From Amphiura filiformis (lineage: Eukaryota): DNA of 64,000 nt. Positions 34,791 to 62,719 of the stretch are shown here, one piece after another. The notes below the pieces were generated by a model that was given only the letters and a program-made list of their open reading frames with translations, was not told the origin of the DNA and searched no databases. The translations under genes and the position numbers were made by a program. Location of the stretch: assembly GCF_039555335.1 (NCBI RefSeq), contig NC_092647.1:51925740-51989739 (forward strand), in the 5' to 3' direction. Every line of letters starts with the position of its first letter. The first letter of the stretch is position 1.

Positions 34791-34831
34791 TATATATCAA
34801 GTTGTCTTCTTCCATTCTTTATTTAATCCAG

Positions 34832-36909: not shown

Positions 36910-37040
36910 TTAGGAAGTATTGTCATTTATATTACCAGATGTGTCCAGCAAAGGTCTGTTATATTTTTCTTTATAAATGAGTAAGACTGGTATACAAAAT
37001 GTAATGGCTGCAAGTGTTGCCCAATTCGTCCACATAACAC
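36910..37040 (-). CDS. MFS paralog 1 exon 11 (TM12, C-terminus, TAA stop).
   Basis: Acceptor tcgttacag|GT. Encodes GVMWTNWATLAAITFCIPVLLIYKEKYNRPLLDTSGNINDNTS*. Confidence 0.65.
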
Positions 37041-37192
37041 CTGTAACGAAAGATAAAAATGTATTGTTTTTAGATTAAACCGGCTATTTTCAAATTAACA
37101 TTGAAGTTAATTTCTCTACAAAAACATTTCAAAAATTACTAATTGAAGTCAAAACGTCATTATTATACCCTTCATCTTGATTCGGTACGTAC

Positions 37193-37375
37193 CAATATTA
37201 GGGATCATCATAACTAAAAGGAAGACAAGACCAGTGAAAGATCGAAGCCACATCAACAATCCCATTGCAATCCCTTCTGATACTGGGTACACTCCTTCAA
37301 CAATAAGTTCGCAATAGATAGGAGGAGTGCCATTTATGAGGAAGCCAAAAAGGATGTTTGAAGCGTAAAGGCTGG
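37193..37375 (-). CDS. MFS paralog 1 exon 10 (TM9-TM11).
   Basis: Acceptor tgtttacag|CC. Donor ATTG|GTACGT. Encodes ASLYAS...YCELIVEGVYPVSEGIAMG...VMMIPNI. Compare FLVCR FEFAVEITYPESEGTSSG. Confidence 0.7.
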
Positions 37376-38560
37376 CTGTAAACAGACAAAATATCACAAT
37401 ATCACATGTTCGCTAGGATGAGTAATACATTATCCTTAAGTGGCACTGATAACAATATTTATATCATGATTACAGTGACTTTAGCCGTGTGATAGTTTTT
37501 ACTATCACATGGCATGAAAAGAAACCATGTGACATCATGATATAAAACAAATATTACATGCCAATATTCGTGTAATAGTAAAAATAAATCATTTGGTCAA
37601 ATTTCCAAATTTGACCTCATCACACTCATAGGCATGTAATATTTGTATACTATTAATCAGCTGAATATTTAATATTAAATATAGTTTGTGATCAATGCAC
37701 GGTTGTTTGATGTCATGTAAAACTGCCATTTTAACGAAAAGTTGAACAATGATTGCGCTATTTATCTTAAATCTTGTTTGCCTCTTTACAAGGGGTATAC
37801 ACTTATAAAAGTGGTATTAGAAATTCAGAAACAAAGACTTAAAAATAGGAAGGACATTTTCAAGAAAACTTTTTATCATGAAATGTAAGGAATAACTCAT
37901 ATTGATTGCCTAATTTAAATTTAAAACATATGTAAATAGCGCCCTCATTTTGCACACAAATGTATAGTTGATGTACTAAAATTACAAACACACACAATAA
38001 AAACAGAACAATATGAATAATTTGAAAAGTTATGAAAATCTATGTTAATTATAGCTAAAAATATAGGTGAATATTAGTGTGATAGCTGTTGGTATTGTCC
38101 AGGCCTAAACATTATATAATGTTTTGTTAGAAAAATTAATAAATGATCATTTAAACAGTAGCGAATTGAGTGCGTGTCCTGGTTACAGTGCATTGGCCTA
38201 TCTCGAATTTCTGCAGTCACATTGTAGCACTGGATTATATTGTAATGCGCCACTGTGCAATGGGGTACGGTGTCACAGCGGTCTAAGACTCTTTTCACCT
38301 CTTTCCTCTCCCCACCCGGGTTACAAATAAGTACCGGTTTTATTCAATGACGAGAAGATAGATAACGGACGAGCTGGGCAGAGGCGTAACGATCCATTTT
38401 GAAAGAGAAAAGTTTTTGAACTACGCTGTCTATGATGATCACTTTTTGGTTTTAAAAAGTTTTTAAAAATAGTTCTACAGTTTAAAGTTTTTGTGTTTGA
38501 CATTTGTCAGAGTTAAGAATCTGAATAATTTATGAAAACACATGTAGTCTTGATATTTAC

Positions 38561-38672
38561 CTAAATTAAAGTGTATAACACCTAAGGTTAAGAGGAGAAA
38601 CCACGTAAAGCAGAGGCAGACGATAAGCAGAGTAAAACTAGCTTCATTTTCCCGCCAATAATATCAACAATC
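38561..38672 (-). pseudogene. MFS paralog 1 exon 9 (TM8). It carries a 7-nt deletion relative to paralog 2, which causes a frameshift and a premature TAA.
   Basis: Acceptor tttctag|GATTGTTGAT. Donor TTTAG|GTAAAT. Alignment to 54230-54348 shows that catacag (plus strand) is missing. The downstream codons FTWFLLLTLGV are out of frame with the upstream codons RIVDIIGGKMKLVLLC. Confidence 0.55.
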
Positions 38673-39249
38673 CTAGAAATACAATGATAAAATTGGTTCT
38701 CAAATTATTCCCAATAACTGATACTTCCTGGTTACATAAATCTTTTGATATTCACGTGTGTATTTAGTATGATTATGGTTATATATGGCTAAACATCTTG
38801 TATTGAAGGGGTCTGCCCGTCAGTCCGAAACACCGTCATTCCGAAACCCCGTTAGTCCGAAAATTAACGGATTTTTAGAGTGACGGGGTTTCGCATGCAA
38901 AGTTAACATTATTTGTCTGTGACTATACAGAAGTTACAGTACGGTATATCAGCCATTATTACAAAACTAATATGCTGCTAATAAACCATAATGTCAATTA
39001 ATATGTACCAGATTATGATGTATATCATTAAGACTATAAATGAAAATATAGGTGGGTTCATTAAGAATAAAATACATCATTCTGCAATTCCCGAAAACCT
39101 TTACAAGCCAAAGAAACTAAAACTACGTCATGGTGCGCAGATCATCACTCCGCCTGCTTGACCAGCCTCGTGTGCATAAACGATGACGTAGTATCGGTTT
39201 CTTTTGCAAAGGATTTCGGAAATTACCGAACTGGTATATTTATACTCAC

Positions 39250-39317
39250 CTGGAAAATATAAGCCCTCCTGCAGCACCTGCCAAATTAGAGTAGGCACCG
39301 ATTCTTCCTGTTGTTTC
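39250..39317 (-). CDS. MFS paralog 1 exon 8.
   Basis: Acceptor catttcag|GAA. Donor TCCAG|GTGAGT. Encodes ETTGRIGAYSNLAGAAGGLIFS. Compare FLVCR [22 protein letters not shown]. Confidence 0.7.
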
Positions 39318-39518
39318 CTGAAATGTTAATCAACTAATCAAACATTTTTCGTAACTATTATCGTGTAAGGGGGTATGTCGGTGAGGGTTGTGTGAACGGG
39401 TGTATAGACGAGTATTCGTAATCACGTAATTATACTAGTCTTAAGACTACGTTCCTCATTTGTTATAAGAACCAAAATAATTTGAATCACTAAGGCATAT
39501 GTCCTAAAACATACTCAC

Positions 39519-39623
39519 TTGTTGAACGTTCATGGTATGCAGAAATATAGTGTCAATTTGAGTCCTCCATGAGTTGAAAAAACCAGCCCATATACAGTAA
39601 CAAAGCGCTGGTATCCAAAACTG
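39519..39623 (-). CDS. MFS paralog 1 exon 7 (TM7).
   Basis: Phase-0 acceptor gaataag|CAG. The alternative ccag|G lies 7 nt upstream and gives an immediate stop. Donor CAACAA|GTGAGT. Encodes QFWIPALCYCIWAGFFNSWRTQIDTIFLHTMNVQQ. Confidence 0.55.
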
Positions 39624-39895
39624 CTTATTCCTGGTATGGCATACAAAGACATAAAATAAATAATACATTTTCTATAATAATTCGATGATCATCGAGTGGG
39701 AGCTGCGCGGAGGCTTCCGATGCATTATTCTTATTAATATAGGCGAAAGTTTTCAAAGCCTATAACAATGAAGTTCTCATGCAAAAATTTAAGCTTTTTA
39801 TAAGTCATTTGGCCTTACTATCCCTGTGGGGATTTTGTACCTATAATTTGATCTACATCACAAGCAAGTCTTCATACGCTTCATCATACTCACAC

Positions 39896-40023
39896 TGCAA
39901 GAATTTTAGCACCAGGAATAAAATCTTCTCTTTTAGATTCAGCTGATGCACTAGGAGGTGTCGGAGGTTTGGCGGGAAAATATAGCCAAGTTAGAAGACA
40001 CAAAAATGCAACCCAAGCACACT
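39896..40023 (-). CDS. MFS paralog 1 exon 6 (end of TM6 plus central loop).
   Basis: Acceptor tctcattcag|AG. Donor TTGCA|GTGTGAGT. Encodes ECAWVAFLCLLTWLYFPAKPPTPPSASAESKREDFIPGAKILA. Compare FLVCR ...AFKEKPRYPPS. Confidence 0.7.
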
Positions 40024-41009
40024 CTGAATGAGACATTATATCAATATTAGATGTGAAAAATTTGAAGCTTAAAGTTTACTGTAAACATTGTAAAAATTTT
40101 AGCTTTTGAGTAGTATAGCTAAAATTTCTGTTGCAAACTACAGCACAATGGTTTGTGAGCATTGAAATGGTAGTATATCCCTAAATGTGATTAATGAATA
40201 AATAGCTGAGGGACGAGCTTTTGATACACTAGCGAATGTTCTCTTCGTTCCCCCATGGGTCTGATGCTGACATAAGGCCAAAAAAATTGTTGTGTTGCCC
40301 TCAACCGTCCGACCTTTTTTTTTTTTTTTTTTTGAATGATGATTTTTACAGATTTGTTCAAAAACTCAATGTTTTTCACTTAAAATTATTATTTTATTGA
40401 AAGACTAGTCTTTAATTGATGTCTAACACTACAGGTATCCAGAAGTCAAAATTGACAAATGTCCCCTAATTGAAGAAGCATTATTTAATATTTTTAAAAA
40501 CTGAAGGTTTAAAAATCGAGTATCGAAAGTTCAAGAGTTAACGTGCTTCGCGGTCACCATCTTTCGCGGTCACTGCAATACGTGGTTGGTTAATTCAAAG
40601 TTTGGTTAATTGTACTGATATTTTGGTCTTAGTGATTAGTGGTGTGATATTATTATTTACAAATAGAAAAGCAAGGTGGACCCAACTTTTATTCACCTTT
40701 CCTGACAGAACTGTCACATGAAGTTACACAGTTAGAATGCATGTACAATATTATGCTGATCACCTAGGCCTATAAAGGATTTCCATGCTCTTTTGATCCC
40801 ATTTGTTTATGTTCAAGTGTGGTCATTATTACACCCCTTTACATGCTCAGATGAGCGGCAGGTCAATGCTTGTTGTTATTATTATGTAAATAAGATGTTA
40901 ACTCCAAAATGGACATTGACCCTTTTGAGTACACAATTGATGTAAATGAGATGATAAACAATCTTGATCTCCAGCACATAATTGACATTATATAAGGAGT
41001 TGTGCAATA

Positions 41010-41425
41010 ATTATGTGTACCCCCGGGTGGTGAATTCTCAAAGTGGTCTGCCAAAAATCGATTCTCTCCCCCCATTTTTGACGTGCCCAAAAAATCTTTG
41101 CCCCCCCCCCTTTACATACTAAGATTTTGGGGAACCGAAATTTAAAACCTTATATTGTCTTATCATATAATGCGAGCGCAGCGAGCAGGAAATGTTGTTT
41201 ATTTGAACGTATTCCTAATGGTTTCCTACACCTTTTTAGGACGTAATATAGAAATGGTGCCCAAAATATCTGTGCCACAAATCGCTTGCCCCCCTTTCGA
41301 CCTGCCAAAATCGCTTGCCCCCCCCTTTCGACCTGACAAAAAATGCTTGCCCCCCCCCCCCTTTTGGCCTGCCAAAAAATCTTTGCCCCCCCCTATAATT
41401 CACCACCCTGGGGTACACATAATTA
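41010..41425. mobile_element. MITE with 30-bp terminal inverted repeats ATAATTATGTGTACCCC(C)GGGTGGTGAATTC and an internal array of GCC(T/A)G(C/A)CAAAA..GC(T/A)TTGCCCCCCC units.
   Basis: The two ends are reverse complements of each other. A second copy at 63045-63480 lies in the opposite orientation. Confidence 0.7.
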
Positions 41426-42499
41426 TAAACATTATAAAGAGTTATAAACAGTCTTGATCTCCAATCCTTATTGACATAATTGATTTATTGTGAGCTTGAC
41501 AAATAATAAATCTGGAGGTATGTGTAGAGGTATATTGATGTAGTAGTTGATGCAGTGACCGGAGTATGAGACAAAAAAGTAGTTGTGAGTGAAAAATATG
41601 ACATTGTTATTTTAGTCCGAAAGGCCCTTTCAGTGCTTTTGGAACTAATTAACTTAATTTGAACCCCTTAACGTAAACAAAAACAAAATTTGATATTTTA
41701 TTGGGGTGCGCACGACCTTGTTCTTCGCATTGCAAAAGTATGTTTTCCGAAATAATGTAAAGCGTAAAAGTTTTTAGCTGTGGTATTAAAATACTCGAAA
41801 ATGAAATTTTCCAACGTGTTTTAGAGACACCCTGCACAGTGTCATCGTCCCGATATCTTCATGGCAGAAAATGCCATGGTAGGGTGAATCCACAGCCACG
41901 AATGGGTGTTCACACCTGTTTATAAAACACATAATAGGCTGAAGGACATCCGACTAAGGCTAATGATATTAGCCTGTGACTGACCTCTGTACGGTCAGCA
42001 AGCATACATACGCCATTGTCTAATGCTTTGCCTTTACGATAGTCTCCTACACAGTCAGTTTGTGTCAGTCGGTCTGACACTCGTCGATCCTGTATGTTCG
42101 TGATAGCCACATACAGTCTGGGCCGAGACTACCTCCACGAGGCCTCGAGGGTCTACGCTGCGCTATATAAAATCTGATGATTTTGGTCACTTTTTCAGCT
42201 CAAGACGCACGCTGGTTTTTCAAAGCGCAACCTAACGACGATAATATATGTTGAACATATATGTTCAAGTGCAAGGAACCACATCTGGTTTCTTTATATA
42301 CGAAATCATTTACGGGAGATATTCATCATTTTCCACCCCGGTATCAAAAGATTTATCGTCTGAATATCAATCGTGCATAGCACATTTACGTGTATCGATC
42401 CCGTGTATTCATTTGAGTGTCTCTGGCTGTACTAATGTAATTATTAACCGGGCGATGTCGGTGTGCCCTGTATGAAGTAGTTTCATTGTGTATACTTGC

Positions 42500-42618
42500 C
42501 AATGTACATTAACAAATAAATTTCTTGTATATGTTTAGATTTGACTGTCGAAGTGATGTTAAGATGTTCCTCATCGCACAAAGACTTCACGACATAAGTT
42601 CCATTAGCTGGATGGAGA
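42500..42618 (-). CDS. MFS paralog 1 exon 5, a mini-exon encoding the N-glycosylated TM5-TM6 loop and the start of TM6. It uses a GC donor.
   Basis: Acceptor ttgtattccag|TCT. Encodes SLHPANGTYVVKSLCDEEHLNITSTVKSKHIQEIYLLMYI. The donor is ATTG|GCAAGT, the canonical GC-AG donor consensus. A length of 119 nt is the only one that reconciles the phase-2 end of exon 4 with the phase-1 start of exon 6. The block is conserved at 56845-56963 inside otherwise diverged introns. Confidence 0.5.
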
Positions 42619-43269
42619 CTGGAATACAAAATACGAAGCGCAATAATAAAGCAATATTAAAAGTGTGTACACAAAAGCTAACTTTACTAACACGTAGTAG
42701 GTGAACAAATGCCATATTCGATTTTTGATAGATAAAAATATGTTATTAATCATGATGAACACATTCAGTTGAACTCGAAATTATCATGTTTATTACATGA
42801 AAATACTAGTAAATGGTTATAAAAAAAGGTTGATATAATTAGTGACAGTAAAGAAGTATACGTAGGCTTACATTATTGAATCAACATATCTTAATGGCAT
42901 AATTATAATGGCTCACTTCAATACTGAACAATTCCGATTTTAGAATCTACCAGTTTATTGATCGCGAGAGCCCGAATAGTGAATGAAAAGATCAGGTGTG
43001 AAAATCTATCAATATCCCCGGTCAATTGTGCACAAAGTAATACAAAATTAATACATAAAATCAGACTTTTAAGCTTAAAAATGCAATAACCAGATTTATT
43101 TATTTATTTAATATTTCTTTATTTTGGATAGCTCTTTCAATACATATACTGGTCTCCCAAGAGGTCCAGATAACTGTTACATAAAATGTTAACAAAATAA
43201 TTATACAAAATATGATAAATAATACATATATTGAAAAACAATCATGCGATTATGGATTATGAATCTTAC

Positions 43270-43524
43270 TTAAACAATAGCATTTTTAAACATGTGTAGA
43301 CTCAAAGAGTCATAATCTAAACGCACACCAACTGGAAGGTTATTCCACAACTTAGTTCCTCTATAATAATAGTGAAAGGTACGTTTACCCAGAGTGTTCT
43401 TCCAAAGTGGAATAACTAAAGTTTTTGAAGATTGACTACGGGTACCTTTTGTATGCATACATTCAGTAAAAATAAATTGAGAACTCAAATAAGATGGTGC
43501 TGAACCTTGAAGGCACTTAAACAC
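43270..43524 (-). mobile_element. CR1/L2-type LINE 3' tail fragment.
   Basis: Encodes ...KRTFHYYYRGTKLWNNLP...SLHMFKNAI, the conserved LINE C-terminal tail motif. Confidence 0.4.
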
Positions 43525-43715
43525 TACAACAAGAAGCTGATTTTTTCACCTTTCATCCAGTTTTGTCCAATTTAATGATTTCATTAAGTCATTGACTACG
43601 GAGAAGTCTAGCTATAAGTTGGAAAGACATTCGATTGATCCAATATCGATACTTCCTTTTTATTTTGGCAAAAATATTATCTTAACTAATTTTATCACCA
43701 AATGGCACTGATTAC

Positions 43716-43922
43716 CTTGTACTGTCGGTGCATTTGAATTCAGATACTATTGACGGTCCAATCAGGAACGAGGCCGCCAAGCCAAGGAAACCTATAGATG
43801 TTAATACTCCTGTTGATGTTGTACGCTGATGAGGTGGAAACCAGGTGACTGAGAAGAGAGGAGCTCCTGTAATTAAAACTGGAGCTCCTAAACCATTAAA
43901 CATCTGCCCGATATTCATCGTC
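43716..43922 (-). CDS. MFS paralog 1 exon 4 (TM4-TM5).
   Basis: Acceptor cttttag|GACGATG. Donor ACAAG|GTAATC. Encodes FSVTWFPPHQRTTSTGVLTSIGFLGLAASFLIGPSIV, matching the FLVCR/SLC49 pattern S.WF..(Q/E)R..A......LG.A.GFL.PP.V. Confidence 0.75.
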
Positions 43923-44335
43923 CTAAAAGTAGCAAATAACGTTTTCTTTAGACAAGAATAAAACACGAAGATCGCGCCATTCCTGGGAAGGTATGTTCCG
44001 AAGGCGTAATGTTCCGAAGGCGCATGCAGCCTGAGGAAAATTCTTGTTGGAAGATTCTTTTTTTTTTCCTTCAGCATTTAATGTCGCGATAATGTTATCA
44101 CGACATTCGTAAAACTTTCCATGGAAAAGTTTTACAAATGGTGCGTTATTATCTATGTCGCTTCATTCATACACAATGATGGAGCGAAAAAAACATTGCG
44201 TGACGTCACAGGTGTGTGTAAATGTCATGTCAAAACCCATCCACTTCGTCTAAAAGCCTGGCAAACAAAAAACGCAAAATGTGGGTCGGTCGAGCCCCTA
44301 TTGAAGTGGCGTGTTTTTTCTACATACATTTCTTA

Positions 44336-44426
44336 CCATTTCATATATTCTGTTGGCACCGGAATACACCGTACAGCTGTTCCAATCAAAATCAGTGTCG
44401 ACGAACATAACATGGCAAGTTTCAAA
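44336..44426 (-). CDS. MFS paralog 1 exon 3 (TM3).
   Basis: Acceptor aaaatgcag|GT. Donor AAATG|GTAAGA. Encodes GLKLAMLCSSTLILIGTAVRCIPVPTEYMKW. Confidence 0.7.
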
Positions 44427-45559
44427 CCTGCATTTTAAAAATGAATAAGAACTACAATGAAAAAATACGAGTAAAATGTGACACAATCTGATCCAATCAG
44501 ACCAAAACACATTTCTAGTGCTATAATTAAAGACAGAGATAAAAAGATTACGATCCTTGATTGGTTTACACAGGTTAATCAGCGTGTAAAAGGAAGACCG
44601 ATCTATCTGGTGCTGATCGGAGAAAAGGAATAGCAGCAAATGGCGAAATATTACGTACTTTTACAAGGCAAAAAGCAGCTTTTCTAATTATTGTGGACAT
44701 GGTGCCTTCGGTTAAGAAAGTTTCCTACTATAAAGACCTAACTTTTGAGATGGTTTGCATGTCGAAAGGTGCAAAATTAACAATAAGGCGCCCGGTTATA
44801 AATACGCGTTCAGCAAGTCATCATCACGACACTTGTAAACAAACCGTGCTCGAGTTTGATTGACAGGTGACGTCAGACGCGATAAATTGTCTTTATCTTT
44901 CATTATACCCCTTTATACGTGTACCCTATTTTGAAATCCTAAAGACTGCTCCAAACGGTCCCCTTTCATTGGCTGACTTGGATCTGACTTACCAGCCAAG
45001 TTGGGTGTCTATTTCAAGTTCCAGTGGCGGCACCAGGAATTTTAATCCACCAGGTGCGACTCAGCATAATGTGAAATTTCTATAGAATTACAATTCAGAT
45101 CTTTATTCCGTTCTTTGATAATCAATGGTGCAATGCAGAGGAGTAGTTTTAAGATAAACTTAAGGTTATTAATCATTTTAAACTGTTGTGATTTGGTAGT
45201 TCACAGCATCTTACGAATTGTAGTGAGTTTTGGCAAAAACTGCATTGCTCAATTCATAGCGAGCGTGTAGAAGAATTAAAATATCACAGATATACTTTTA
45301 TAGATGCTGCGGTTCTTGAGTTACATTGTAAAGAGGTCTGAAACAACAACACTTTTGTAAAACGTACATAACTCATTAACAACAATAAATTAAGCAAGTT
45401 TGCAAAGTATACGATTTGTAGAATGAACTTTTGCAAAGCATCAAGGATTTAATTTTCAATAATATATTGATCTAGATAATGAAAATCGATTTTTAGGTTG
45501 CTTCGACCAACAATACCTCGCCTACCCTTAAAGTCTAGTGCAGAGCAATACATTCAAAT

Positions 45560-47060
45560 ACGCCCGCAAATACGTTAGCGAATCCGAATGTAGAAACATA
45601 CATGGATAAGATAATTAATCCTGAATGAAGAGATTTATACGTGTTGGGAATAGACATCAAAGGTATATTTTAAAACTGGTCAACAACACTCACTTTTTGA
45701 ACCGAATATTTCAGAGAAACCATTCTCCGTCCTCAGCGGTGTAATGCTGTTGGTAGACTGACTGATGATTCTCCAGTGACAGTGTTTCTAGATGTTATTG
45801 ACAATGTCCTTTTTGTCCTTTGTGATGGTGTTTCTAGAAGAGAATCATATATTCTAAAGATGCGCAATGGGCCTCCCGGTCAGCCCGATTATCGACAACT
45901 TATACATGGAATGGTTTGAAAACAAAGCGCTAACATCCACCGCTGACCCCCAAGAATTTGGCTTCGTTATGTGGACGATACCTTCGTGGTAATCAATAAG
46001 GAGAAAGTCCAACAGTTCACTGACCACATTAACAGTCAAAATGAACATATCAAATTTACCAACGATCCAGAGAAGGACGGTCAATTACCATTCCTAGATA
46101 CTTTGGTAAAAAGACAAACAGACGGTACGGTAAAGGTGAGTATTTACCGGAAACCTACGCATACTGACCAGTATTTGGCTTTTGATTCCCACCATCCACT
46201 TGAACACAAACTCAGTGTAATCAGAACCCTTTTCCATCGGGCAGATACTTTAGTTACTGATACGGAAGATCGAGAAAAAGAAATAAATTACGTCAAAGGG
46301 GCCCTTAGACGCTACAAGGAGTGGAGTTTTAAACGTGCTCAAACCAAAAAACAACCGGTTGAAAAACAGTGCGATTCGGAATCCTCTTCCAAGACATTTG
46401 TTGTAGTTCCGTACGTCCAGGGCCTATCAGAAAAGGTCAAAAGAATACTTGGCAGTTACGGTGTATCGGTGGTATTCAAACTGCACCAAACGCTTCGCCA
46501 ATTACTTGTTGCCCTGAAAGACAAACCTCGCGAGGAAGACAAGTCAGGAGTTGTGTACCGTGTACCCTGTGAAGGCTGCGAGAAAGTGTACGTGGGTGAA
46601 ACCAAGCGAACCCTCGGTGAGCGCCTGAAAGAACACACTGCCAAGACAACCTCAAATCAGTCGGCATTAGCAGAGCACAGCAAGGACACCGGACATAAAC
46701 CGGACATTGGAAATGTTAAAGTCCTCTGCAGAGAAGACAAGTTTTTGCCAAGGAAAGTGAGGGAAGCCATTAAAATCAAACAAGAGACAAGCCCCATCCT
46801 AAATAGGGACGGGGGCCTAGAACTTTCTAGAATATATGATTCTCTTCTAGAAACACCATCACAAAGGACAAAAAGGACATTGTCAATAACATCTAGAAAC
46901 ACTGTCACTGGAGAATCATCAGTCAGTCTACCAACAGCATTACACCGCTGAGGGCGGAGAATGGTTTCTCTGAAATATTCGGTTCAAAAAGTGAGTGTTG
47001 TTGACCAGTTTTAAAATATACCTTTGATAATTAATCCTGTTATATATCAATACTTCTAGG
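45560..47060 (+). mobile_element. PLE 3' half (reverse-transcriptase C-terminus plus GIY-YIG endonuclease, ORF 45971-46951) bounded by inverted terminal repeats of about 150-280 bp. It lies in intron 2 of MFS paralog 1.
   Basis: GIY-YIG core SGVVYRVPCEGCEKVYVGETKRTLGERLKEH. Reverse-transcriptase tail YRKPTHTDQYLAFDSHHP. The segment 45560-45850 is the reverse complement of 46800-47060. Confidence 0.7.
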
Positions 47061-47174: not shown

Positions 47175-47285
47175 CTTTGTTGTCCATCAACCAAGAAAAG
47201 AAGGCAACGGTCACACACACGGACATTGGTCCCCATATGGTGAGTAATGCAATATCACCGTCATTCCACCCTAACACGGGTTTAG
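47175..47285 (-). CDS. MFS paralog 1 exon 2 (TM2).
   Basis: Acceptor attttag|CT. Donor AAAG|GTCAGA. Phase is consistent with exon 1. Encodes AKPVLGWNDGDIALLTIWGP... Confidence 0.7.
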
Positions 47286-48149: not shown

Positions 48150-48351
48150 CTGTATCAGCTATTGATCCCCACGTATTCCATATTAAAGTTTGAGTACCCG
48201 CTAGAGCAGTATATAACGCCAAAAGATACCACCGCCGTCCATAGGTGGTGTATTGATGATCTTCAGGTGGTGTTGATTGATTGGTCCAGTTGATGTTAGT
48301 GCTTTCTGGAGTCGGTAAAGCATTTTTTAGTAACGCCGCCTTTTCATCCAT
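48150..48351 (-). CDS. Exon 1 of MFS (SLC49/FLVCR-like) transporter paralog 1, encoding MDEKAALLKN... and TM1.
   Basis: ATG at 48351. Encodes RRWYLLALYTALAGTQTLIWNTWGSIADT. Donor ACAG|GTATAC. Paralogous exon at 62518-62719. Confidence 0.7.
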
Positions 48352-53366: not shown

Positions 53367-53512
53367 TCATATTTCATTGGAAGTATTCTCATTTATATTA
53401 CATGTACCAGATGTGTCCAGCAAAAGTCTGTTATATTTTTCTTTATAAATGAGTAATACTGGTACACAAAATGTAATGGCTCCAAGTATTGCCCAATTCG
53501 TCCACATAACAC
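53367..53512 (-). CDS. MFS paralog 2 exon 11 (TM12, C-terminus, TGA stop).
   Basis: Acceptor cgttacag|GT. Carries a 6-nt in-frame insertion and a 4-codon C-terminal extension relative to paralog 1. Confidence 0.65.
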
Positions 53513-53646: not shown

Positions 53647-53829
53647 CAATATTAGGGATCATCATCACTAAAAGAAAGATAAGAGCAGTGAAAGCTCGAA
53701 ACCACATCAACGATCCTGTTGCAATCCCTTCTGATACTGGGTACACTCCTTCAACAATAAGTTCACAATAGATAGGAGGGGTGCCTTTTATGAGGAAGGC
53801 AAACAGGATGATTGAAGCGTAAAGGCTGG
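53647..53829 (-). CDS. MFS paralog 2 exon 10 (TM9-TM11).
   Basis: Acceptor ctatttacag|CC. Donor ATTG|GTACGT. Confidence 0.7.
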
Positions 53830-54229
53830 CTGTAAATAGACAAAATATCAAAGGTAAAGATGCATTACAAAACAAAACGTATAGTATATAATTATACCAA
53901 ATACATTTGCTCAATTGTTATCTAAACATTGCTATTAAATCCACTTTTATGGGAACTCCATGTTCACTGGAATGAGCGATCCATTTGGCGCTGACAACAG
54001 TATTTTATTAGCTGAATGTTACGCTAGTTCATGATCATCTGAATGGACCACACAGTAAAGTGGTGCAGTTTCAATAGGGAAAAACACATCTCTCTGATTT
54101 CTACGATAGAATCACTTTTTAGTGAAAATTTTGTCAAAGTAATAATTATATTGTGTAAAGCTTTTTTGTTTGACATTTGTTATAAAGTAATTTGATTTAT
54201 AATTATGATTCGGAATACTCCATATTTAC

Positions 54230-54348
54230 CTAAATTAAAGCGTATAACGCCCAGGGTCAGGAGGAGAAACCACGTAAAGCAGCATACAGAGGCAGTCGAT
54301 ACGCAAAGTAAAACTAGCTTCATTTTCCCGCCAATAATATCGACAATT
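54230..54348 (-). CDS. MFS paralog 2 exon 9 (TM8), intact.
   Basis: Acceptor ttttcag|AATTGTCGAT. Donor TTTAG|GTAAAT. Encodes RIVDIIGGKMKLVLLCVSTASVCCFTWFLLLTLGVIRFNLG. Compare FLVCR [28 protein letters not shown]. Confidence 0.7.
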
Positions 54349-54973: not shown

Positions 54974-55041
54974 CCTGGAAAATATAAGCCCTCCTGCAGC
55001 ACCTGCCAAAGCCGAGTAGGCACCGATTCTTCCTGCTGTTT
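54974..55041 (-). CDS. MFS paralog 2 exon 8.
   Basis: Acceptor tatttcag|GAA. Donor TCCAG|GTGAGT. Confidence 0.7.
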
Positions 55042-55417
55042 CCTGAAATAGTATTCAACTAAACATTAACTTGTAGTAGGCCTATCGTGGGTGTGTGGGA
55101 TGGGGGTGTTTATGTGTAAGGTCAGAGATGCGGGAGAAGGGGTACGTGGATGTAACTATAATTATTTTGGTTTATCTCAAGTTCGGTAATGATGTAGGTG
55201 CGTATTTCGCTCGCCGCAGTATCAAATCGCGCGAGTAAAGTTAAACGCCCTGAGTGTATACGCACGCGTACAGGGGCGGTTTGTTAGCACGCTTGCGGCG
55301 CAACCGCGAAAGAGCATTAACGTCACTACCAAACTTGAGGTGAACCAAATTACGTTTCGAAGAAGGGCATTCATTTGTTTTGAGAAACAAAATAATTTGA
55401 ATCAAAGACATACTCAC

Positions 55418-55521
55418 TTGTTGAACGTTCATCGTAGTAAAAATATAGTGTCAGTTTGAGACCTCCACGCGTTGTAAAATCCAGCCCCTATGCAGAAACA
55501 AACCGTTGGTATCCAAAACTG
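55418..55521 (-). pseudogene. MFS paralog 2 exon 7 (TM7). A 1-nt deletion relative to paralog 1 causes a frameshift and an in-frame TGA before the donor.
   Basis: The exon is 104 nt versus 105 nt in paralog 1. The indel maps to ...tatttttactacgatg versus ...tatttctgcataccatg. The amino-acid sequence has also diverged (QFWIPTVCFCIGAGFYNAWRSQTDTIFLLR*). Confidence 0.5.
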
Positions 55522-55713
55522 CTTATTCCTGGAAAAACATACAAAAGTCATAATTATTATGACTTTATAATTTATTTGATATGAAGATCACTGACATGTT
55601 CACCGCTCACTCACACACACACCACCACCACCATTCACTCACTTCGTAGTCACACAATAAATAAACTGATAAATGTACCAATAATTAATTGGCATAATTA
55701 ATTATACTCACAC

Positions 55714-55841
55714 TGCAAGAATTTTAGCACCTGGAATAAAATCTTCCCTTTTAGTTTCAGCTGATGCACTTGGAGGTGTCGGAGGTTTGGCGGGAAAATA
55801 TAGCCAAGTTAGAAGACACAAACATGCCACCCAGCCGCACT
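55714..55841 (-). CDS. MFS paralog 2 exon 6.
   Basis: Acceptor tctcattcag|AG. Donor TTGCA|GTGTGAGT. Encodes ECGWVACLCLLTWLYFPAKPPTPPSASAETKREDFIPGAKILA. Confidence 0.7.
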
Positions 55842-56844
55842 CTGAATGAGACATATAATTACATCAAAATATTACTTAGAAACTAATAATATAAATTTTA
55901 ATGTGGATCAGCTTTCCCATTTTATGGGAACATAATTATAGAAAATTGCTATGCTAATAATTGTCATGCGTAATGGAAAAAAAAGTTGCAGATTGTTGAT
56001 ACAAAATTGTACCCATGAAAAGGCCTATCTGTTATAGCTTATTAGATTTATTAATAAATCACACAAGTTTTAAAAGTTTATGTTAAACATTTTATAATGA
56101 ATAGCTTTGATATTTCCCTACGATGAAATACCAGGGGGATAAGCTTTCGAATGTTATCTTCGTGACATCATGAGTCTGCTGAAGATGACAAAGTTCATTT
56201 GGCCTCCTCGAGAGTGACGTCATCAGTACACTGTCTAACTTGACGCGTGTACAGATGTACGCCTTTTAATGCGCGTGTAAACATGCCAGTTCTTTGAGTT
56301 CGTACTATTAGAAGCACACACTGATGACGTCACTCTCTCGAGAAATCCAAACGGACTATTGAACTATAGAAAGCTCAAGAGTTTCCTTTCCTAGAGAAAG
56401 ATCACTGCTATATGTTAATGTTCTGCCCTAGAGTAGCATTTACTGGGTGTATCTAAAAGCTCTATATCGTCTGAATGAAATGGAAGACCTTAAAACTAAA
56501 AGGCGGTTTTAGTCACATGGAGTGCATTTCAAGATATTTGGCAAAGACAGTAATTATGTCCATGTAGTTTCAATTTCAATATAAGGTAATTTCGTCGATG
56601 AAGTTTCAATGCTCTACAACATGGTACAGAGGGTAGTAGTACCGGTGTGGATATCCCCTTATAGCAGAGAAACTGACACTAACACGTTGTCAACTCTCAT
56701 ATACTTTCAGAATGTTGAAAATTGACTCCTTAATTTCATGCACTGAGGTATTTTAAGTTCATGACTCGTGGAATTCATTAAAAATGAATTGTCGTGATGT
56801 GATATACAGAATGCTCTAATAATTTACTAACTCAACATACTTGC

Positions 56845-56963
56845 CAATGTACATTAACAAATAAATTTCTTGTATATGTTTAGATTTGATTGTCGATGTG
56901 ACGTTAAGATGTTCCTCCTCGCGCAAAGACTTCACGACATAAGTTCCATTAGCTGGATGGAGA
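56845..56963 (-). CDS. MFS paralog 2 exon 5, a mini-exon with a GC donor.
   Basis: Same acceptor (ttatattccag|TCT) and same GC donor (ATTG|GCAAGT) as 42500-42618. Both N-x-T glycosylation sites are retained (NGT, NVT). Confidence 0.5.
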
Positions 56964-57049
56964 CTGGAATATAAAATGCGAGGCACAAACAGAGCAAAGT
57001 TTAGAACTGTGTACTAACTTTTCTACCATATACTACTGGACAAATATCA

Positions 57050-57310
57050 TTGGTTTCCGTATTGCTTTACATGATACCTCAATGCATGAAACCCAACACA
57101 AGACCAGGAAGAGGGCAGCACCAACTGAGATACCACCATCTGCAGACCAACCTTGATATTTATAGATATTCTTTCTACCCACGAGTCATACCATTGTGGA
57201 ATTTGCTCCCAACCCAGGCTGTGCTTGCAACATCACCAGAGGCTTTCAACTTAGCTGCGATGCCCTTCATCAGGCAGTTGCAGCCAGCAGCCTCCGGCAA
57301 GAGTTGGTAG
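57050..57310 (+). mobile_element. LINE 3' tail fragment.
   Basis: Encodes SFYPRVIPLWNLLP...SPEAFNLAAMPFI. Confidence 0.4.
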
Positions 57311-58012
57311 ACAGCAACTCATCTAGTTTTTAACCACACCGCACCTTAAGTTTCTTCAGCATTTAATTTTCTGCACTTTGGACCACATGCACATTGTTGC
57401 CAGCTTCCGGGACAGCAGATAATGCTTTTATGGAAGTCACCTATCAAGTATCAAGTATCAAGTATGATGAAAAACGTAATAAATCTAGTATACACTTTAG
57501 TCATATCTGTTCACTATATAGCATTGAAGAAACTCTCTAGAACTAATATTCGGTGAGAACCTTCGTGTGCCGCACATTCACAGCTTCCAATGGCAGCGAG
57601 TAATTCTATGTTTGCCTAAGGTTATTTTAAACAGTTGCGATTTGGTAGCTCACAGCATCTTACGAATGGTAGTGTGAGCTTTGGCAACAATTGCATTGAT
57701 CATTTCATAGCGAGTGTGTAGAAGAATTCATATATCACAGATATACTTTTGTTGGTCATGTGGTTCTTGAGTTATGTTGTAAAGAGGGCTGAAACAACAA
57801 CACTTTAGTAAAACGTACATAACTCATTAATAACAATAAATCAAGCAAGTTTCAATAGTATATGATTTATAGAATGAACTTTTGCAAAACTTCAACTTAA
57901 AAGGAAAAATGGCTGATCTCTCTCTCGGATGTCGTAGACTGCATATTATTTGCTATCAGCTTTGGCGTAAAATAATCTTATATGATTTTTATAACAAAAT
58001 GGCAATGATCAC

Positions 58013-58219
58013 CTTGTACTGTTGGTACATTTGAATTCTGAAACTATTGACGGTCCAATCAGGAACGAGGCCGCCAATCCGAGGGAACCTATAGATGTTA
58101 ATACCCCTGTTGATGTTGTACGCTGATGAGGTGGAAACCAGGTGACTGAGAAGAGAGGAGGTCCTGCAATTAAAGCAGGACCTCCTAGACCATTAAATAA
58201 CTGCCCGATATTCATCGTC
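58013..58219 (-). CDS. MFS paralog 2 exon 4 (TM4-TM5).
   Basis: Acceptor tatttcag|GACGATG. Donor ACAAG|GTGATC. The protein is nearly identical to 43716-43922. Confidence 0.75.
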
Positions 58220-60159
58220 CTGAAATACAATAAAAGTTTGTATGTAACAAATACCGTGTTCGTTTGATAAAGATAGGGTAAAACACGAAGATCACGGCAT
58301 TTCTTGACATTCTCGCCAGCAATTTCTTGTCTGATAATTCCTGTTGTTTTGTTTGTTTTTGTTTTTGTTTTTTGCATCAGCGATTTGTACGAACGTAGTG
58401 ATATTGATACCATGACATTCGTAAAACTATTATTTATATCGCTTCATTCCTACAAAATAATGGAGTGAAAAAAACACAATAGCGTGTGTGTTAATATCAT
58501 CATGATCATGCACCAGTACTATCAAACTTTAGTTATCATTCATGTAATTTAAAGACCCATTCAGTGATCCCAGCGAAAGTACAAAAATATATATAATTGT
58601 TTGTAAATTTGTTTAAAGTGAAGGATAAGTCAGTCAAATTGTCATCTGGTATTTTTTAAATGACAAATTTGGCAAAAAACAAAGAAAACAGCAGTATTGA
58701 CGAAGTCGGAAGTCGAAGCCCCATTCAAATACATGTAGCTAATTTAGATACTGTCAGTATCTAAATTACAGATTCATGTAAATTTCATATTTTTGTCTTA
58801 AATACACAGCTTTCGGCTGAACCACAAGCAGGCTATGTTAACATATTTATGACAATGACTAAGGTACCAAAATCTGAATTTTGATGATTTTTACGATCGT
58901 CCGGATGAGCAAATCACTGAATGGGCCTTTAAGTAAATGCATCAGAATGAATCATTTTGCATCAGAGTCTGTAAGACTAAGCTAAAAGTCCCGCAAATAC
59001 ATGTCCTAGTCAAAAAGGCAAGAATTGGGTTCGATTCGGATTGATTACATGTTTAATTAGATATCAAAGTTCAAGATCATGTCATCAAATTTACAGAAAA
59101 CCTAATCTAATTTTGGTCAAGTACAAACACGTAGACTAGAAATAATTAGATAGTGGTCAGTTCCACATTCAAGAAATCCTTTTGCATGAACAATGCAGTT
59201 TCTTTCAATTTCCACTAGGGATTAACATTGTCTATCGAGGCTACAAACCATGCAAACTGATTATTAGTATTTTGAACCAATAACCAATCATAACAGTGCA
59301 TTGTTTATTACCCCTTCTTTTTTGGTGCTAAAAGGTTTGAATTGACTTGAAACAAAAACACAGATGACCTAAGGACATAATGCTTAAGGTTAGCATAAAC
59401 TGTAGTTTAAACTGTTGCGATTTGGTACTTTTTAGCATCTTGCGAATGGTAGTGAGCTTTGGCAAAAATTGCATTGATTCAAAAATTCAAATATCACAGA
59501 TATACTTTTGTAGGTACTGTGGTCCTTGAGTTATGTTGTAATGAGGGCTGAAACAACAACACTTGTAAAAAGTACATAACTCATTCACAACAATAAATCA
59601 AGCAAGCAAGTATATGATTGTAGAATGAACTTTTGCAAAACATCAAAGCGTTATTTTTCAATAATATATTGATTTTTTTTTGCTGCTTCGACTAACAATA
59701 CCTGGTCTACCCAGTTTACCCTCAATCATGACTGTGACATACAAACGAACATACTTCATATAATAACGTTGAACAGACTACACCAAAGTATAAGGCGATG
59801 AAAAAAACCCTGTTCTACGGGCGGACTCACCAAACATAATTCAAGCAAATGCCGACTTCAATTTTCGCTGAATTTCTCATGAAGTCGATAAGGTGGGTCG
59901 GTCGGGATTAAAAATACCAAAATAATCGTAAAAAATCACAGAAAGCTTGAAATATCTGAAAATTTGTGGTCATAGATTTATGGTCAAAATCAATCCACGT
60001 TGGCCAAAAACGGTTGTTTTTAATTTCATACGGCTAAAACAAATAACGAAGTTCCCAAAATGCAATATCTGGGTTGGTCGGCCTGTAGAAAAGGGGTTTT
60101 GTTTCGTCTCCTTCTATATATATATATATATATAAAATTTCCCGGGATAATTTCCATAC

Positions 60160-60250
60160 CATTTCATATATTCTATTGGCACCGGGATACACCGTACAGC
60201 TGCTCCAAGCAACATAAGTGTCGACGAACATAGCATGGCAATTTTCAAAC
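60160..60250 (-). CDS. MFS paralog 2 exon 3.
   Basis: Acceptor caaaatacag|GT. Donor AAATG|GTATGG. Encodes GLKIAMLCSSTLMLLGAAVRCIPVPIEYMKW. Confidence 0.7.
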
Positions 60251-61537
60251 CTGTATTTTGAAAATGTGCAAACGAACAACACGGAAGTTGTTCAAGTAAA
60301 TGTGACACAATCTGAAAGTCGTTATTAATGAAATTGCGATATAAGTAAAAAATAAGGTGTAAAAACAATTTTCTACAATATTCTAAATTTCCGACTTGGG
60401 TCTGAGTGGATCAGACCATGTAAGTTTAGCGAATCGAACCTGTTGAAGAGAATAAAAACGCCTTCTATAGCGGTCACGACGGTAATGTCTTTTTGCTATC
60501 TAATGTCGAACTTACTATCAATAATACGAAGGAAATGCATGACATGTATAAGATATGAAATACAAGTGAGTATTTGAAGTCACAAAAACATGCGGTACCT
60601 CACGTGACCTTGCATTATGACACCGTATTTGTCTGTGTGTTCGCATTCATGTTCTCCTCATTGTCCTGTGAATAAAAATCTAATCAGATATAAAGGTATC
60701 TGGCTCCCGGCATGAATTACTGATTTTATAAGTATGTAAAGAAAATTACACAATAGTGATTACGGTGCTCAGTAATGCACAAATTAACCAAGAAAGTCTT
60801 GAGGTCACATTGAGGTTGCAGTGGCGTGTCTGGGATTGAAAATCACGTGGGCCACGGCAATATTTTAAGATTGGCAGCTGATTTACATTGGCTGAGTTAA
60901 TTGTCATGTGTGTGTATGTATATTATATATATAACTGTTGCGATTTGGTAGTTACTGGTCTTTACATGTAGCCTATGGAGAGAGTGCCCGTTGAGGGCGC
61001 TATAACCCCCATTTTAGGAACAAAAATGTGATTTTAAAAAAACTGACTCGTGCAAATTTTCTAAAATTTTCAGAGTATGTAGTATGAACATGTAGAAATA
61101 TAATCAAGTAGTTACCCTACCTGCTCTTCTCCGAAAAAATAAAAAGTCCTATACCTCAATGATAATGAAACCTAGGTGAGCTATTAAATTGCGCATTTAA
61201 CCCATTATAGAATTCGAGTCAAGCTGTCTGCGGATATTATTAGCGCCCTCTAGCAAGGTCACGGTGTCATTTTAATAACAATACGCTATTTACATAACAA
61301 TAAATTGGACACATGCTAATTAGCGATTGTTACATCATGATTCTATCATCCCTGGCAATGCCATGCATTTGTTTTGATCAAGAATGTGATTTTAGTTTAG
61401 AATTATGGACTTTATAAAGGCAATAAGCAAAGTACACAGTGTACACATTTAATGAGCTGATACAAAACATTTGAATCCGTTACCGCGCTATTGATACCTA
61501 TGCATAGTCCATGAAATGATTGTGTTAAAAAACTGAC

Positions 61538-61648
61538 CTTTGACGTCCAGCAACCAAGAGAATAAGATAATAGTAACACACATGGATATTGGTCCCCATA
61601 TTGTTAATAATGCAATATCACCATCATTCCACCCTAACACGGGTTTGG
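61538..61648 (-). CDS. MFS paralog 2 exon 2.
   Basis: Acceptor gtttttcag|CC. Donor AAAG|GTCAGT. Confidence 0.7.
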
Positions 61649-62517
61649 CTGAAAAACAATAATAATATAACATAGTTGTGGGAAATGACATGACTAATTA
61701 AGTAAAAGACTCATAATGCTGGAAAACCAAAAAATACATCGTGTGTTTCTCTGGCTCTCAGCTGTTCTCAATGAGAGAACAATCAAAGTCAGCAAAATAT
61801 TTCTAAACTGCTTTATATGTGTCGTCCCATGCAGAATGGAGAAATAAGTTCTGGTACCGATCCAAAAGCAATGAAGTACTCACTCGATATATTTCAGTTC
61901 TTATCAGCAGTGGCGTAGATTTCTTTTTGACAGTGGGGAGATGGGGTTGGAAAAAATTTCTTGAAGTATATTGAATTTAGCACCTTTTGGCGATATAATA
62001 AGGTAACGGTCCAATTGCGAGCGAAGCGCGCGAAAAATTTTGCCATTTTGAGGCTAAACTGTTGAAATATAGTATATAAAATTTGCCCTTTTTGGGGCTA
62101 AAATGGCCAAATATAAGGTTAATTTGGTCAGAAACCCCCCAAACCCACATACAGGCGTCAACATTGGGGGATGATTGGGGATTTATCTCCCCCCCCCCAT
62201 ACACCCCCCGGATCTACGCCGATATGCCTATCAGGAACCTTGTTCACTATGCAATGACTGTAGTGTTATGATATATCGAGTGAGTACTGCATTTCTTTTG
62301 GATCTGTACCAGAACATATTTATTTAAGTTGAAGTTGGGCTTTGTTTCTCCATTCTGCATTGGTTGAACGATCCTGATGAATCTCATTAATAACCAACTT
62401 CAACCTTTTTACCCTCTGTCTTGCATGTTGGTAGCCTAACAGATAGGGTTACGCGAATTTCGCATTCAAATTTAGAAGCCTCAGTTGTGCATCTTTCTGG
62501 TGCAACTTTTGACATAC

Positions 62518-62719
62518 CTGTATCAGCTATTGATCCCCACGTATTCCATATTAAAACCTGAGTACCCGCTATAGCAGTGTATAACGCCAGAAGATACCAC
62601 CGCCGTCCATAGGTGGTGTATTGATGATCTTCAGGTGGTGTTGATTGATTGGTCCAGTTGATGTTAGTACTTTCTGGAGTCGGTGAAGTATTTTTTAGTA
62701 ACGGAGCCCTTTCATCCAT
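62518..62719 (-). CDS. MFS paralog 2 exon 1, encoding MDERAPLLKN... and TM1.
   Basis: Paralog of 48150-48351. Donor ACAG|GTATGT. Confidence 0.7.

What the first reader, a model, noticed from the sequence alone, without database searches (positions are those of the whole stretch)
36910..62719. Tandem pair of SLC49/FLVCR-like MFS transporter genes with fully reconstructed 11-exon models
Two minus-strand paralogs (36.9-48.4 kb and 53.4-62.7 kb) share every exon boundary. The encoded proteins show family hallmarks: FSVTWFPPHQRTTSTGVLTSIGFLGLAASFLIGP (TM4-TM5), a WLYFPAKPPTPPS central loop, TGRIGAY, and YPVSEGIA (the FLVCR YPESEG analogue). FLVCR/SLC49 proteins transport heme and choline. A lineage-specific tandem duplicate adjacent to a GPCR array is noteworthy.
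Basis: partly seen in the sequence, partly recalled or inferred. Interest (0 to 1): 0.55.

Follow-up and report, generated by a model that had tools for sequence, protein, structure and literature searches.

The report
Two broken brittle-star SLC49A4 transporter copies

Summary
Two head-to-tail minus-strand paralogues (A 48351-36910, B 62719-53367) each have 11 coding exons. All 20 splice sites sit at equivalent positions, and intron 5 is GC-AG in both. The window is Amphiura filiformis: RefSeq XP_072020444.1 ("solute carrier family 49 member 4 homolog") matches copy B's exons at 100%.

The subfamily is SLC49A4/DIRC2, the lysosomal H+-driven pyridoxine exporter, not FLVCR (heme/choline). Repaired A is 35% identical to mammalian SLC49A4 (E 9e-67). 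FLVCR1 is only a weak PDB hit (E 5e-14).

The models are not "fully reconstructed". Copy A has a 7-bp deletion in exon 9, giving a stop after 374 aa. Copy B has a 1-bp deletion in exon 7, giving a stop after 319 aa. The RefSeq model avoids B's lesion through a weak cryptic donor found only in B, which deletes TM7.

dN/dS is 0.35, the same as the intact GPCR duplicates next door, so the lesions are recent. They could also be errors of the nanopore-based assembly, although 6.3 kb of neighbouring paralogous coding sequence has no frameshift.

Verdict: ordinary young tandem duplicates in a brittle-star SLC49A4 expansion, probably decaying. Low interest.

The parts
48150..48351 (-). Copy A exon 1 (ATG at 48351-48349; encodes the N-terminal DEKAALL acidic dileucine motif and TM1)
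47175..47285 (-). Copy A exon 2
44337..44427 (-). Copy A exon 3
43716..43922 (-). Copy A exon 4 (WFPPHQRTTSTG; TM4-TM5)
42500..42618 (-). Copy A exon 5 (luminal TM5-TM6 loop with NGT and NIT sequons); it is followed by a GC-AG intron
39894..40023 (-). Copy A exon 6 (TM6 and the WLYFPAKPPTPPS central loop)
39519..39630 (-). Copy A exon 7 (112 nt, intact; TM7)
39250..39317 (-). Copy A exon 8 (ETTGRIGAY...; TM8)
38561..38672 (-). Copy A exon 9, 112 nt instead of 119. A 7-bp deletion lies between 38614 and 38613, and the resulting premature TAA is at 38590-38588
37193..37375 (-). Copy A exon 10 (YPVSEGIA; out of frame as the sequence stands)
36910..37040 (-). Copy A exon 11 (ancestral-frame stop TAA at 36912-36910; 6-bp in-frame deletion relative to B)
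62518..62719 (-). Copy B exon 1 (ATG at 62719-62717; DERAPLL motif)
61538..61648 (-). Copy B exon 2
60160..60250 (-). Copy B exon 3
58013..58219 (-). Copy B exon 4
56845..56963 (-). Copy B exon 5 (followed by a GC-AG intron)
55712..55841 (-). Copy B exon 6
55418..55528 (-). Copy B ancestral exon 7, 111 nt instead of 112. A 1-bp deletion lies between 55437 and 55436, and the premature TGA is at 55431-55429. The canonical donor CAA|GTGAGT is kept
55504..55528 (-). The 25-nt truncated exon 7 used by RefSeq model XP_072020444.1. It ends at the cryptic donor ACG|GTTTGT, which is absent from copy A (GCG|CTTTGT). Using it drops 29 aa of TM7
54975..55042 (-). Copy B exon 8
54230..54348 (-). Copy B exon 9 (119 nt, intact)
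53647..53829 (-). Copy B exon 10
53367..53512 (-). Copy B exon 11 (stop TGA at 53369-53367)

Best explanation
The region contains two head-to-tail tandem paralogues of the SLC49A4 (DIRC2) branch of the SLC49 major-facilitator family, in the brittle star Amphiura filiformis. They belong to a brittle-star-specific expansion of about ten loci.

By homology, the ancestral product was a 12-helix transporter of the lysosomal membrane. It would be sorted by an N-terminal ExxxLL motif, carry a glycosylated luminal loop between TM5 and TM6, and export a small metabolite in symport with H+. For human DIRC2 that metabolite is pyridoxine. This function is inferred, not shown.

In this sequence both copies keep every splice site, the start codon and the stop codon, but each carries one frame-disrupting deletion. 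The 7-bp deletion in exon 9 of A ends the protein in TM9. The 1-bp deletion in exon 7 of B ends it at the close of TM7.

The most likely reading is that these are young duplicates kept under purifying selection until recently and now being lost as pseudogenes or segregating null alleles. This is near certain for nothing but most secure for copy A. The annotated 466-aa RefSeq product of B is an ORF-preserving splice choice that removes TM7 and is unlikely to be a working transporter.
For: Gene structure: the exon models and conserved splice sites come.

Lesions:
- The deletions and resulting stops are shown.
- The 7-bp deletion is flanked by CTG microhomology (CT[CTGTATG]CTGC). That is a mutational signature, not a base-calling one.
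- No protein close to copy A exists in 5.8 billion clustered proteins. Only B's model and a truncated 301-aa model of a third close paralogue (P0002) were found.
- Gnomon's exon 7 for B ends at the only frame-preserving GT inside the exon. That donor is weak, while the perfect canonical donor GTGAGT is retained (own inspection of the sequence).

Assembly quality: 6.3 kb of paralogous GPCR coding sequence in the same window has no frameshift. Genome BUSCO is 96.1% complete (PMC11310086).

Subfamily:
- Best hits carry SLC49A4/DIRC2 names.
- Repaired A is 35% identical to mammalian SLC49A4, E 9e-67.
- The tree places A and B inside the A. filiformis clade.
- The ExxPLL consensus is conserved, matching human E10RQPLL15 (PMC9719028).

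Fold: the AF2 model of intact paralogue P0003 has pTM 0.84, shows 12 TM helices, and fits FLVCR2 best.

Past constraint: dN/dS is 0.35 with dS 0.17.

Signs of altered or relaxed constraint: A, B and (where it reaches) P0002 share derived changes at columns fully conserved in 36 other family members: P63S, A173G, W329R and F332A.
Against: - The assembly is nanopore R9.4.1 plus flye plus racon, with Merqury QV 31.6 (6.8e-4 errors per base) and 3.2% heterozygosity. A uniform error rate would predict about one error per 1.5-kb CDS, so the 1-bp deletion in B in particular could be an artefact.
- Each copy has exactly one lesion.
- dN/dS downstream of the lesions (0.38) is no higher than upstream (0.34).
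- The overall value equals that of the intact neighbouring GPCR duplicates (0.34). There is therefore no sign of prolonged neutral decay.
- No reads or RNA-seq could be examined.
Confidence: 0.65

Rival explanations
1. Both genes are intact and functional in the animal. On this view the two deletions are assembly or polishing artefacts, or come from a null haplotype captured by the haploid mosaic assembly.
For: - The assembly is nanopore R9.4.1-based with QV 31.6, and heterozygosity is 3.2%.
- There is exactly one lesion per copy. All 20 splice sites, the start codons and the stop codons are intact.
- dN/dS of 0.35-0.38 holds even downstream of the lesions and equals the intact GPCR neighbours.
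- The two damaged exons are among the most divergent between the copies, which could reflect local polishing trouble.
Against: - A 7-bp deletion with flanking microhomology is not a typical nanopore or polishing error.
- B's deletion is not inside a long homopolymer.
- There are no frameshifts in 6.3 kb of paralogous GPCR coding sequence, nor in a 1,111-aa gypsy pol ORF, in the same window.
- Genome BUSCO is 96.1% complete.
- The third close paralogue (P0002) also has only a truncated model.
Confidence: 0.2
2. Copy B is functional through the splice form annotated in RefSeq (XP_072020444.1, 466 aa). That form uses the internal donor at 55504/55503 to bypass the frameshift.
For: - The model exists in RefSeq and reproduces the window exactly.
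- The cryptic GT is specific to B, so it could in principle be a compensatory change.
Against: - The form lacks 29 residues that align with TM7 in all 40 homologues, including near-invariant Y, G and W positions.
- An 11-helix product would invert the topology of TM8-12. This follows from the established 6+6 architecture of MFS proteins.
- The cryptic donor ACG|GTTTGT is weak, whereas the canonical CAA|GTGAGT is perfect and retained.
- It is the only frame-preserving GT in the exon, as expected if the annotation software was maximising the ORF.
Confidence: 0.05
3. The genes are FLVCR-type (SLC49A1/2) plasma-membrane heme or choline/ethanolamine transporters.
For: - FLVCR1/2 are the only solved relatives.
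- YPVSEG aligns with FLVCR1's YPESEG, and the R of A's TGRIG / B's AGRIG aligns with FLVCR1's AGRIG.
Against: - Similarity to FLVCR1 is limited to two fragments, with a whole-sequence E of 5e-14. Against mammalian SLC49A4 it is 35% identity over 451 aa, E 9e-67.
- Every named top hit is SLC49A4/DIRC2.
- The N-terminal ExxxLL lysosomal motif and the long sequon-bearing TM5-6 loop are DIRC2 features (sequence).
Confidence: 0.02

Closest known systems
Human/vertebrate SLC49A4 (DIRC2), the lysosomal H+-driven pyridoxine exporter (PMC9719028; Savalas et al. 2011 as cited there)
   Same: - Full-length collinear similarity: 35% identity, E 9e-67.
- An N-terminal acidic dileucine motif: DEKAALL / DERAPLL versus human ERQPLL.
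- A long luminal TM5-TM6 loop with N-glycosylation sequons.
- A PPxPPS central loop and a YPVxEG motif.
- A 12-TM MFS fold, seen in the modelled paralogue.
   Different: - Both window copies have broken reading frames.
- They belong to a multi-copy brittle-star expansion rather than being a single-copy gene.
- Four positions fully conserved in the other family members are changed: P63S, A173G, W329R and F332A.
- Substrate and localisation are untested.
A. filiformis RefSeq XP_072020444.1, 'solute carrier family 49 member 4 homolog' (P0001)
   Same: It is the annotated product of copy B. Ten of its eleven exons are identical to the model given here.
   Different: Its exon 7 is cut to 25 nt at a cryptic donor, omitting 29 aa (TM7) to step around the 1-bp deletion. 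The ancestral exon 7 (55528-55418) is frameshifted.
FLVCR1/FLVCR2 (SLC49A1/2), choline/ethanolamine (and formerly heme) transporters, PDB 8ubw and 8vzo
   Same: - Same SLC49 family and the same fold. The model of paralogue P0003 fits FLVCR2 with TM 0.94 at 20-22% identity.
- The YPxSEG motif is shared.
   Different: - A different subfamily with only about 20-25% identity.
- FLVCRs act at the plasma membrane and lack the ExxxLL lysosomal signal and the DIRC2-type luminal loop.
Other A. filiformis SLC49A4-like paralogues (P0003 and P0006 on the same chromosome; P0004, P0005, P0009, P0032, P0073 elsewhere; P0002 truncated)
   Same: The same family and the same species-level expansion. P0002 is 88% identical to A over exons 1-6 and groups with A and B.
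   Different: P0003 and the other full-length paralogues (472-524 aa) are only 42-56% identical to A and B. The A/B/P0002 subclade is the only one in which every member has a defective or truncated model.

Membership tests
Major facilitator superfamily (MFS) | Significant match to Pfam MFS_1 (PF07690) above the gathering score | tested here: met
   53 bits against a cut-off of 33.4, E 3.3e-14, for the concatenated copy A exons.
Major facilitator superfamily (MFS) | Twelve transmembrane helices in two six-helix bundles, encoded by an open reading frame | tested here: not met
The intact paralogue P0003 models as 12 TM, pTM 0.84.
- As the sequence stands, A stops in TM9 (374 aa) and B stops at the end of TM7 (319 aa). 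The RefSeq B model lacks TM7.
SLC49 family | Closest solved or characterised relatives are SLC49 members rather than other MFS families | tested here: met
   - the only PDB sequence hits are FLVCR1 and FLVCR2.
- the paralogue model matches FLVCR1/2 at E 1e-15 to 1e-17, against 4e-08 or weaker for all other MFS structures.
SLC49A4 / DIRC2 subfamily | Greater full-length similarity to SLC49A4 orthologues than to other SLC49 members, and nesting within the SLC49A4 clade | tested here: met
   - all named top hits are SLC49A4/DIRC2, vertebrates included.
- 35% identity, E 9e-67, to mammalian SLC49A4, against E 5e-14 for FLVCR1.
- neighbour-joining tree.
SLC49A4 / DIRC2 subfamily | N-terminal acidic dileucine ([DE]xxxL[LI]) lysosomal sorting motif | tested here: met
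   A has M-D-E-K-A-A-L-L and B has M-D-E-R-A-P-L-L. The family consensus is ExxPLL. The human motif is E10RQPL14L15 (PMC9719028). Whether the motif functions was not testable.
SLC49A4 / DIRC2 subfamily | Lysosomal localisation, cathepsin L processing in the luminal loop, and H+-coupled pyridoxine transport | not testable with these tools
   Only sequence correlates can be seen: a long, poorly conserved TM5-TM6 loop with NGT and NIT/NVT sequons, encoded by exon 5.
SLC49A4 / DIRC2 subfamily | Retention of family-invariant residues | tested here: inconclusive
   73 columns are at least 90% conserved among 36 other members. A departs at 5 of them and B at 7. Four of the shared departures are at 100%-conserved columns (P63S, A173G, W329R, F332A). 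These are shared derived changes, compatible with either relaxed constraint or altered specificity.
FLVCR (SLC49A1/2) subfamily | Best reciprocal similarity to FLVCR1/2 | tested here: not met
   FLVCR similarity is far weaker than SLC49A4 similarity, and no FLVCR-named protein appears among the top hits.

The most novel reading that the evidence does not exclude
The A/B/P0002 subclade could be a functional, neofunctionalised offshoot of SLC49A4. On this reading the two frameshifts are assembly artefacts or rare null alleles. The shared replacement of family-invariant residues would then have changed the substrate or gating of a lysosomal transporter in brittle stars. Those replacements are W329R and F332A at the start of TM8 (the R matching the FLVCR state), P63S and A173G.
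Probability: 0.1. Interest if true: 0.35.

Novelty: already known. Interest (0 to 1): 0.12.

Why it matters
It matters little beyond annotation hygiene. Copy B is already in RefSeq as an SLC49A4 homologue. The useful corrections are these:

- The family assignment should be SLC49A4/DIRC2 (lysosomal, vitamin B6-type substrate) rather than FLVCR (heme/choline).
- Neither copy has an intact frame in the reference assembly.
- The 466-aa RefSeq protein lacks TM7 and should not be used as a functional transporter in comparative or expression studies.

The pair is a small example of birth-and-death turnover in a moderately expanded transporter family in a highly heterozygous marine invertebrate.

Tried and rejected
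- **Locus DNA for other paralogues.** The look-up of encoding contigs for P0001 and P0002 returned nothing on record. The third paralogue's locus and an independent copy of this locus could therefore not be examined, and no outgroup DNA was available for branch-specific dN/dS.
- **Structure of copy A itself.** I modelled the intact paralogue P0003 instead.
- **AFDB fold search.** The afdb50 library, meant to rank the SLC49 subfamilies with names, was unavailable. SLC49A3/MFSD7 was therefore never compared directly.
- **Splice rescue of the frameshifts.** In B the stop lies upstream of the canonical donor, and the only frame-preserving internal GT is the one Gnomon used. In A, skipping exon 9 does not restore the frame. 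The only frame-preserving internal donor (after exon nt 68, TTTAC|GTGGTT) would delete half of TM9. This is my own inspection of the sequences.
- **Exon-wise gene conversion.** I tested whether it explains exons being much more similar than introns. Per-exon synonymous differences range from 0.04 to 0.30, but the heterogeneity is not significant (my arithmetic: chi-square about 13.6, 10 d.f.). The same pattern of conserved exons and unalignable introns holds for the GPCR pair, so it is not specific to this locus.
- **Non-coding RNAs.** The Rfam and tRNA scans of the window were empty.
- **Transcript evidence.** No transcript-derived (Logan or ENA) protein close to A or B appeared in the protein searches. 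The intact paralogues also lack such members, so this absence is uninformative.


Full report
**What is in the sequence**

A blastn comparison of 36-49.5 kb with 52.5-64 kb gives ten collinear blocks of 75-93% identity on the same strand.

A protein search with the concatenated exons identified the source. The best hit, P0001, is RefSeq XP_072020444.1, "solute carrier family 49 member 4 homolog" of the brittle star Amphiura filiformis, on a 64.3-Mb chromosome. An exhaustive spliced match of P0001 to the window reproduces it exactly in 11 exons of copy B (62719-53367).

Aligning each B exon, with its flanks, to the other locus gives 11 equivalent exons for copy A (48351-36910). The AG acceptors and GT donors sit at identical positions. 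Intron 5 uses a GC donor in both copies.

Neither copy is open when translated through these conserved splice sites.

- Copy A lacks 7 bp in exon 9. B reads GCCT-CTGTATG-CTGC and A reads GCCT-CTGC. The exon is 112 nt instead of 119. The frame runs into TAA at 38590-38588 after 374 codons, in the middle of TM9.
- Copy B lacks 1 bp near the 3' end of exon 7, which is 111 nt against 112 in A. That gives ...DTIFLLR and a TGA at 55431-55429 after 319 codons.
- Intact family members read through both places, for example P0003...LDTIFYNTVGVGQ... and ...LTSCGIGCVVWIIL.... A therefore keeps the ancestral exon 7 and B keeps the ancestral exon 9.

The RefSeq model for B avoids the lesion by ending exon 7 after 25 nt at ACG|GTTTGT. 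This GT is absent from A and is the only frame-preserving GT in the exon. The perfect canonical donor CAA|GTGAGT is still there. The 466-aa product consequently lacks 29 residues that align with TM7 in every homologue.

I found no protein model close to copy A in the 5.8-billion-cluster database. The third close paralogue, P0002 on another chromosome, has only a 301-aa model that ends by reading into intron 6.

**Real lesions or assembly errors?**

Reasons for caution:
- The published assembly is nanopore R9.4.1 plus flye plus racon. Its Merqury QV is 31.6 and heterozygosity is 3.22% (PMC11310086).
- Each gene has exactly one lesion.
- dN/dS between A and B in the repaired frame is 0.35 (dS 0.17, dN 0.061). 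It is 0.38 downstream of the lesions.
- That is indistinguishable from the intact secretin-type GPCR duplicates next door (dS 0.16, omega 0.34).
- There has therefore been no long period of neutral decay.

Reasons to think the lesions are real:
- A 7-bp deletion flanked by CTG microhomology looks like a mutation, not a base-calling error.
- B's deletion is not in a long homopolymer.
- 6.3 kb of paralogous GPCR coding sequence in the same window aligns without a single frameshift. A 1,111-aa gypsy pol ORF is also open.
- Genome BUSCO completeness is 96.1%.
- All three members of this subclade have defective models.

I put about 0.65 on recent, real inactivation, most securely for copy A. I put about 0.2 on both genes being intact in the animal.

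**What family**

- Pfam gives MFS_1 above threshold.
- The only solved relatives are FLVCR1 and FLVCR2 (E 5e-14 to 1e-8, two fragments).
- An AlphaFold model of the intact paralogue P0003 (pLDDT 85.5, pTM 0.84, twelve TM helices) matches FLVCR2 and FLVCR1 structures with target TM-scores of 0.82-0.94. Its E-values are about eight or more orders of magnitude better than for any other MFS transporter.

SLC49 is therefore right. Within SLC49 the subfamily is SLC49A4/DIRC2.

- Every named protein among the top 120 profile hits is SLC49A4 or DIRC2, from cnidarians to mammals.
- Repaired A is 35% identical to mammalian SLC49A4 over 451 residues (E 9e-67).
- In a neighbour-joining tree, A, B and P0002 form a tight clade inside a group of A. 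filiformis paralogues (P0003/4/5, P0006/9, P0032, P0073). That group sits with the other echinoderm SLC49A4 homologues.

DIRC2-specific features are present:
- The N-terminal acidic dileucine motif (DEKAALL / DERAPLL) corresponds to the human E10RQPLL15 that directs DIRC2 to lysosomes (PMC9719028).
- A long, poorly conserved TM5-TM6 loop carries NGT and NIT/NVT sequons (exon 5).

[quoted passage not shown] That is the best functional analogy for the ancestral gene, not heme or choline transport. SLC49A3/MFSD7 could not be compared directly because no sequence was available and the AFDB library was offline.

**Peculiarities of the subclade**

Among 73 columns at least 90% conserved in 36 other SLC49A4 proteins, A and B share substitutions at four fully conserved ones. 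These are P63S (WGSIADT versus WGPIADT), A173G, W329R and F332A. P0002 shares the first two; it ends before the other two positions.

The arginine does match FLVCR1's AGRIG. These changes pre-date the A/B split. They fit either relaxed constraint or a change of specificity. I cannot tell which.

**Context and side observations**

- It also holds a LINE and a Ty3/gypsy element.
- Copy A's intron 2 contains a Penelope-like GIY-YIG fragment flanked by 99.4%-identical inverted repeats.
- A 434-bp MITE-like element lies in A's intron 5 and again upstream of B.
- A 370-bp dispersed repeat occurs six times in the window.
- Introns of A and B are almost entirely unalignable, although four-fold degenerate sites differ by only 13%. 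The GPCR pair shows the same contrast. This remains unexplained.

**Verdict**

This is a correct observation of an ordinary, partly annotated tandem duplication. The family is refined to SLC49A4/DIRC2. The important correction is that both reading frames are broken in the reference sequence. Interest is low.

Noticed in passing
window 210-740, 10960-15556, 30978-35314 (+ strand): A tandem array of secretin-family (Pfam 7tm_2) GPCR genes. Each has a large first coding exon (786 and 808 aa ORFs) and a last exon of about 160 aa. Only the last exon of a third copy is in the window. The two full copies are 88.6% identical in protein, with dS 0.16 and dN/dS 0.34. That is the same divergence as the SLC49A4 pair, and there are no frameshifts.
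   Followed up: partly
window 36910-62719 introns; also 13.4-15.0 kb versus 33.5-34.7 kb: Paralogous introns are essentially unalignable. For example, intron 1 is 864 versus 869 bp with 6% aligned, and intron 6 has 0% aligned. Yet four-fold degenerate sites in the exons differ by only 13%. The GPCR pair shows the same pattern. Exon-limited gene conversion or very fast intron turnover could explain it. Per-exon heterogeneity in synonymous divergence was not significant.
   Followed up: partly
window 45684-47000 (intron 2 of copy A): A fragment of a Penelope-like retroelement. It has a 326-aa plus-strand ORF (45971-46951) with a weak GIY-YIG endonuclease match (E 3e-4). It is flanked by inverted repeats of about 170 bp that are 99.4% identical (45684-45856 and 46828-46984).
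   Followed up: partly
window 40993-41426 and 63062-63493: A 434-bp MITE-like element with 30-nt terminal inverted repeats. One copy lies in intron 5 of copy A. Another lies in opposite orientation just upstream of copy B, at 87% identity. Its G/P-rich pseudo-ORFs have no Pfam match.
   Followed up: partly
window 8246, 22600, 23463, 45159, 57624, 59383 (about 330-370 bp each; the 8246 copy is a 44-bp fragment): A dispersed short repeat, possibly SINE-like, with six copies in the window at 76-89% identity. Three lie in introns of the two SLC49A4 copies.
   Followed up: no
window 2869-5617 and 24468-28582 (+ strand): A LINE-type element (endonuclease-like ORF plus an RVT_1 reverse transcriptase) and an apparently intact Ty3/gypsy element. 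The gypsy element has a gag ORF and a 1,111-aa pol ORF with RT, RNase H and integrase domains. Both lie between the GPCR copies.
   Followed up: partly
P0002 (XP_072018973.1, another A. filiformis chromosome): A third close paralogue, 88% identical to copy A over exons 1-6, is annotated only as a 301-aa protein. The model reads through two donor sites (the YGNYIEDEG insertion and the terminal ...AKILAV). This suggests a further defective or fragmentary copy of the same subclade.
   Followed up: partly
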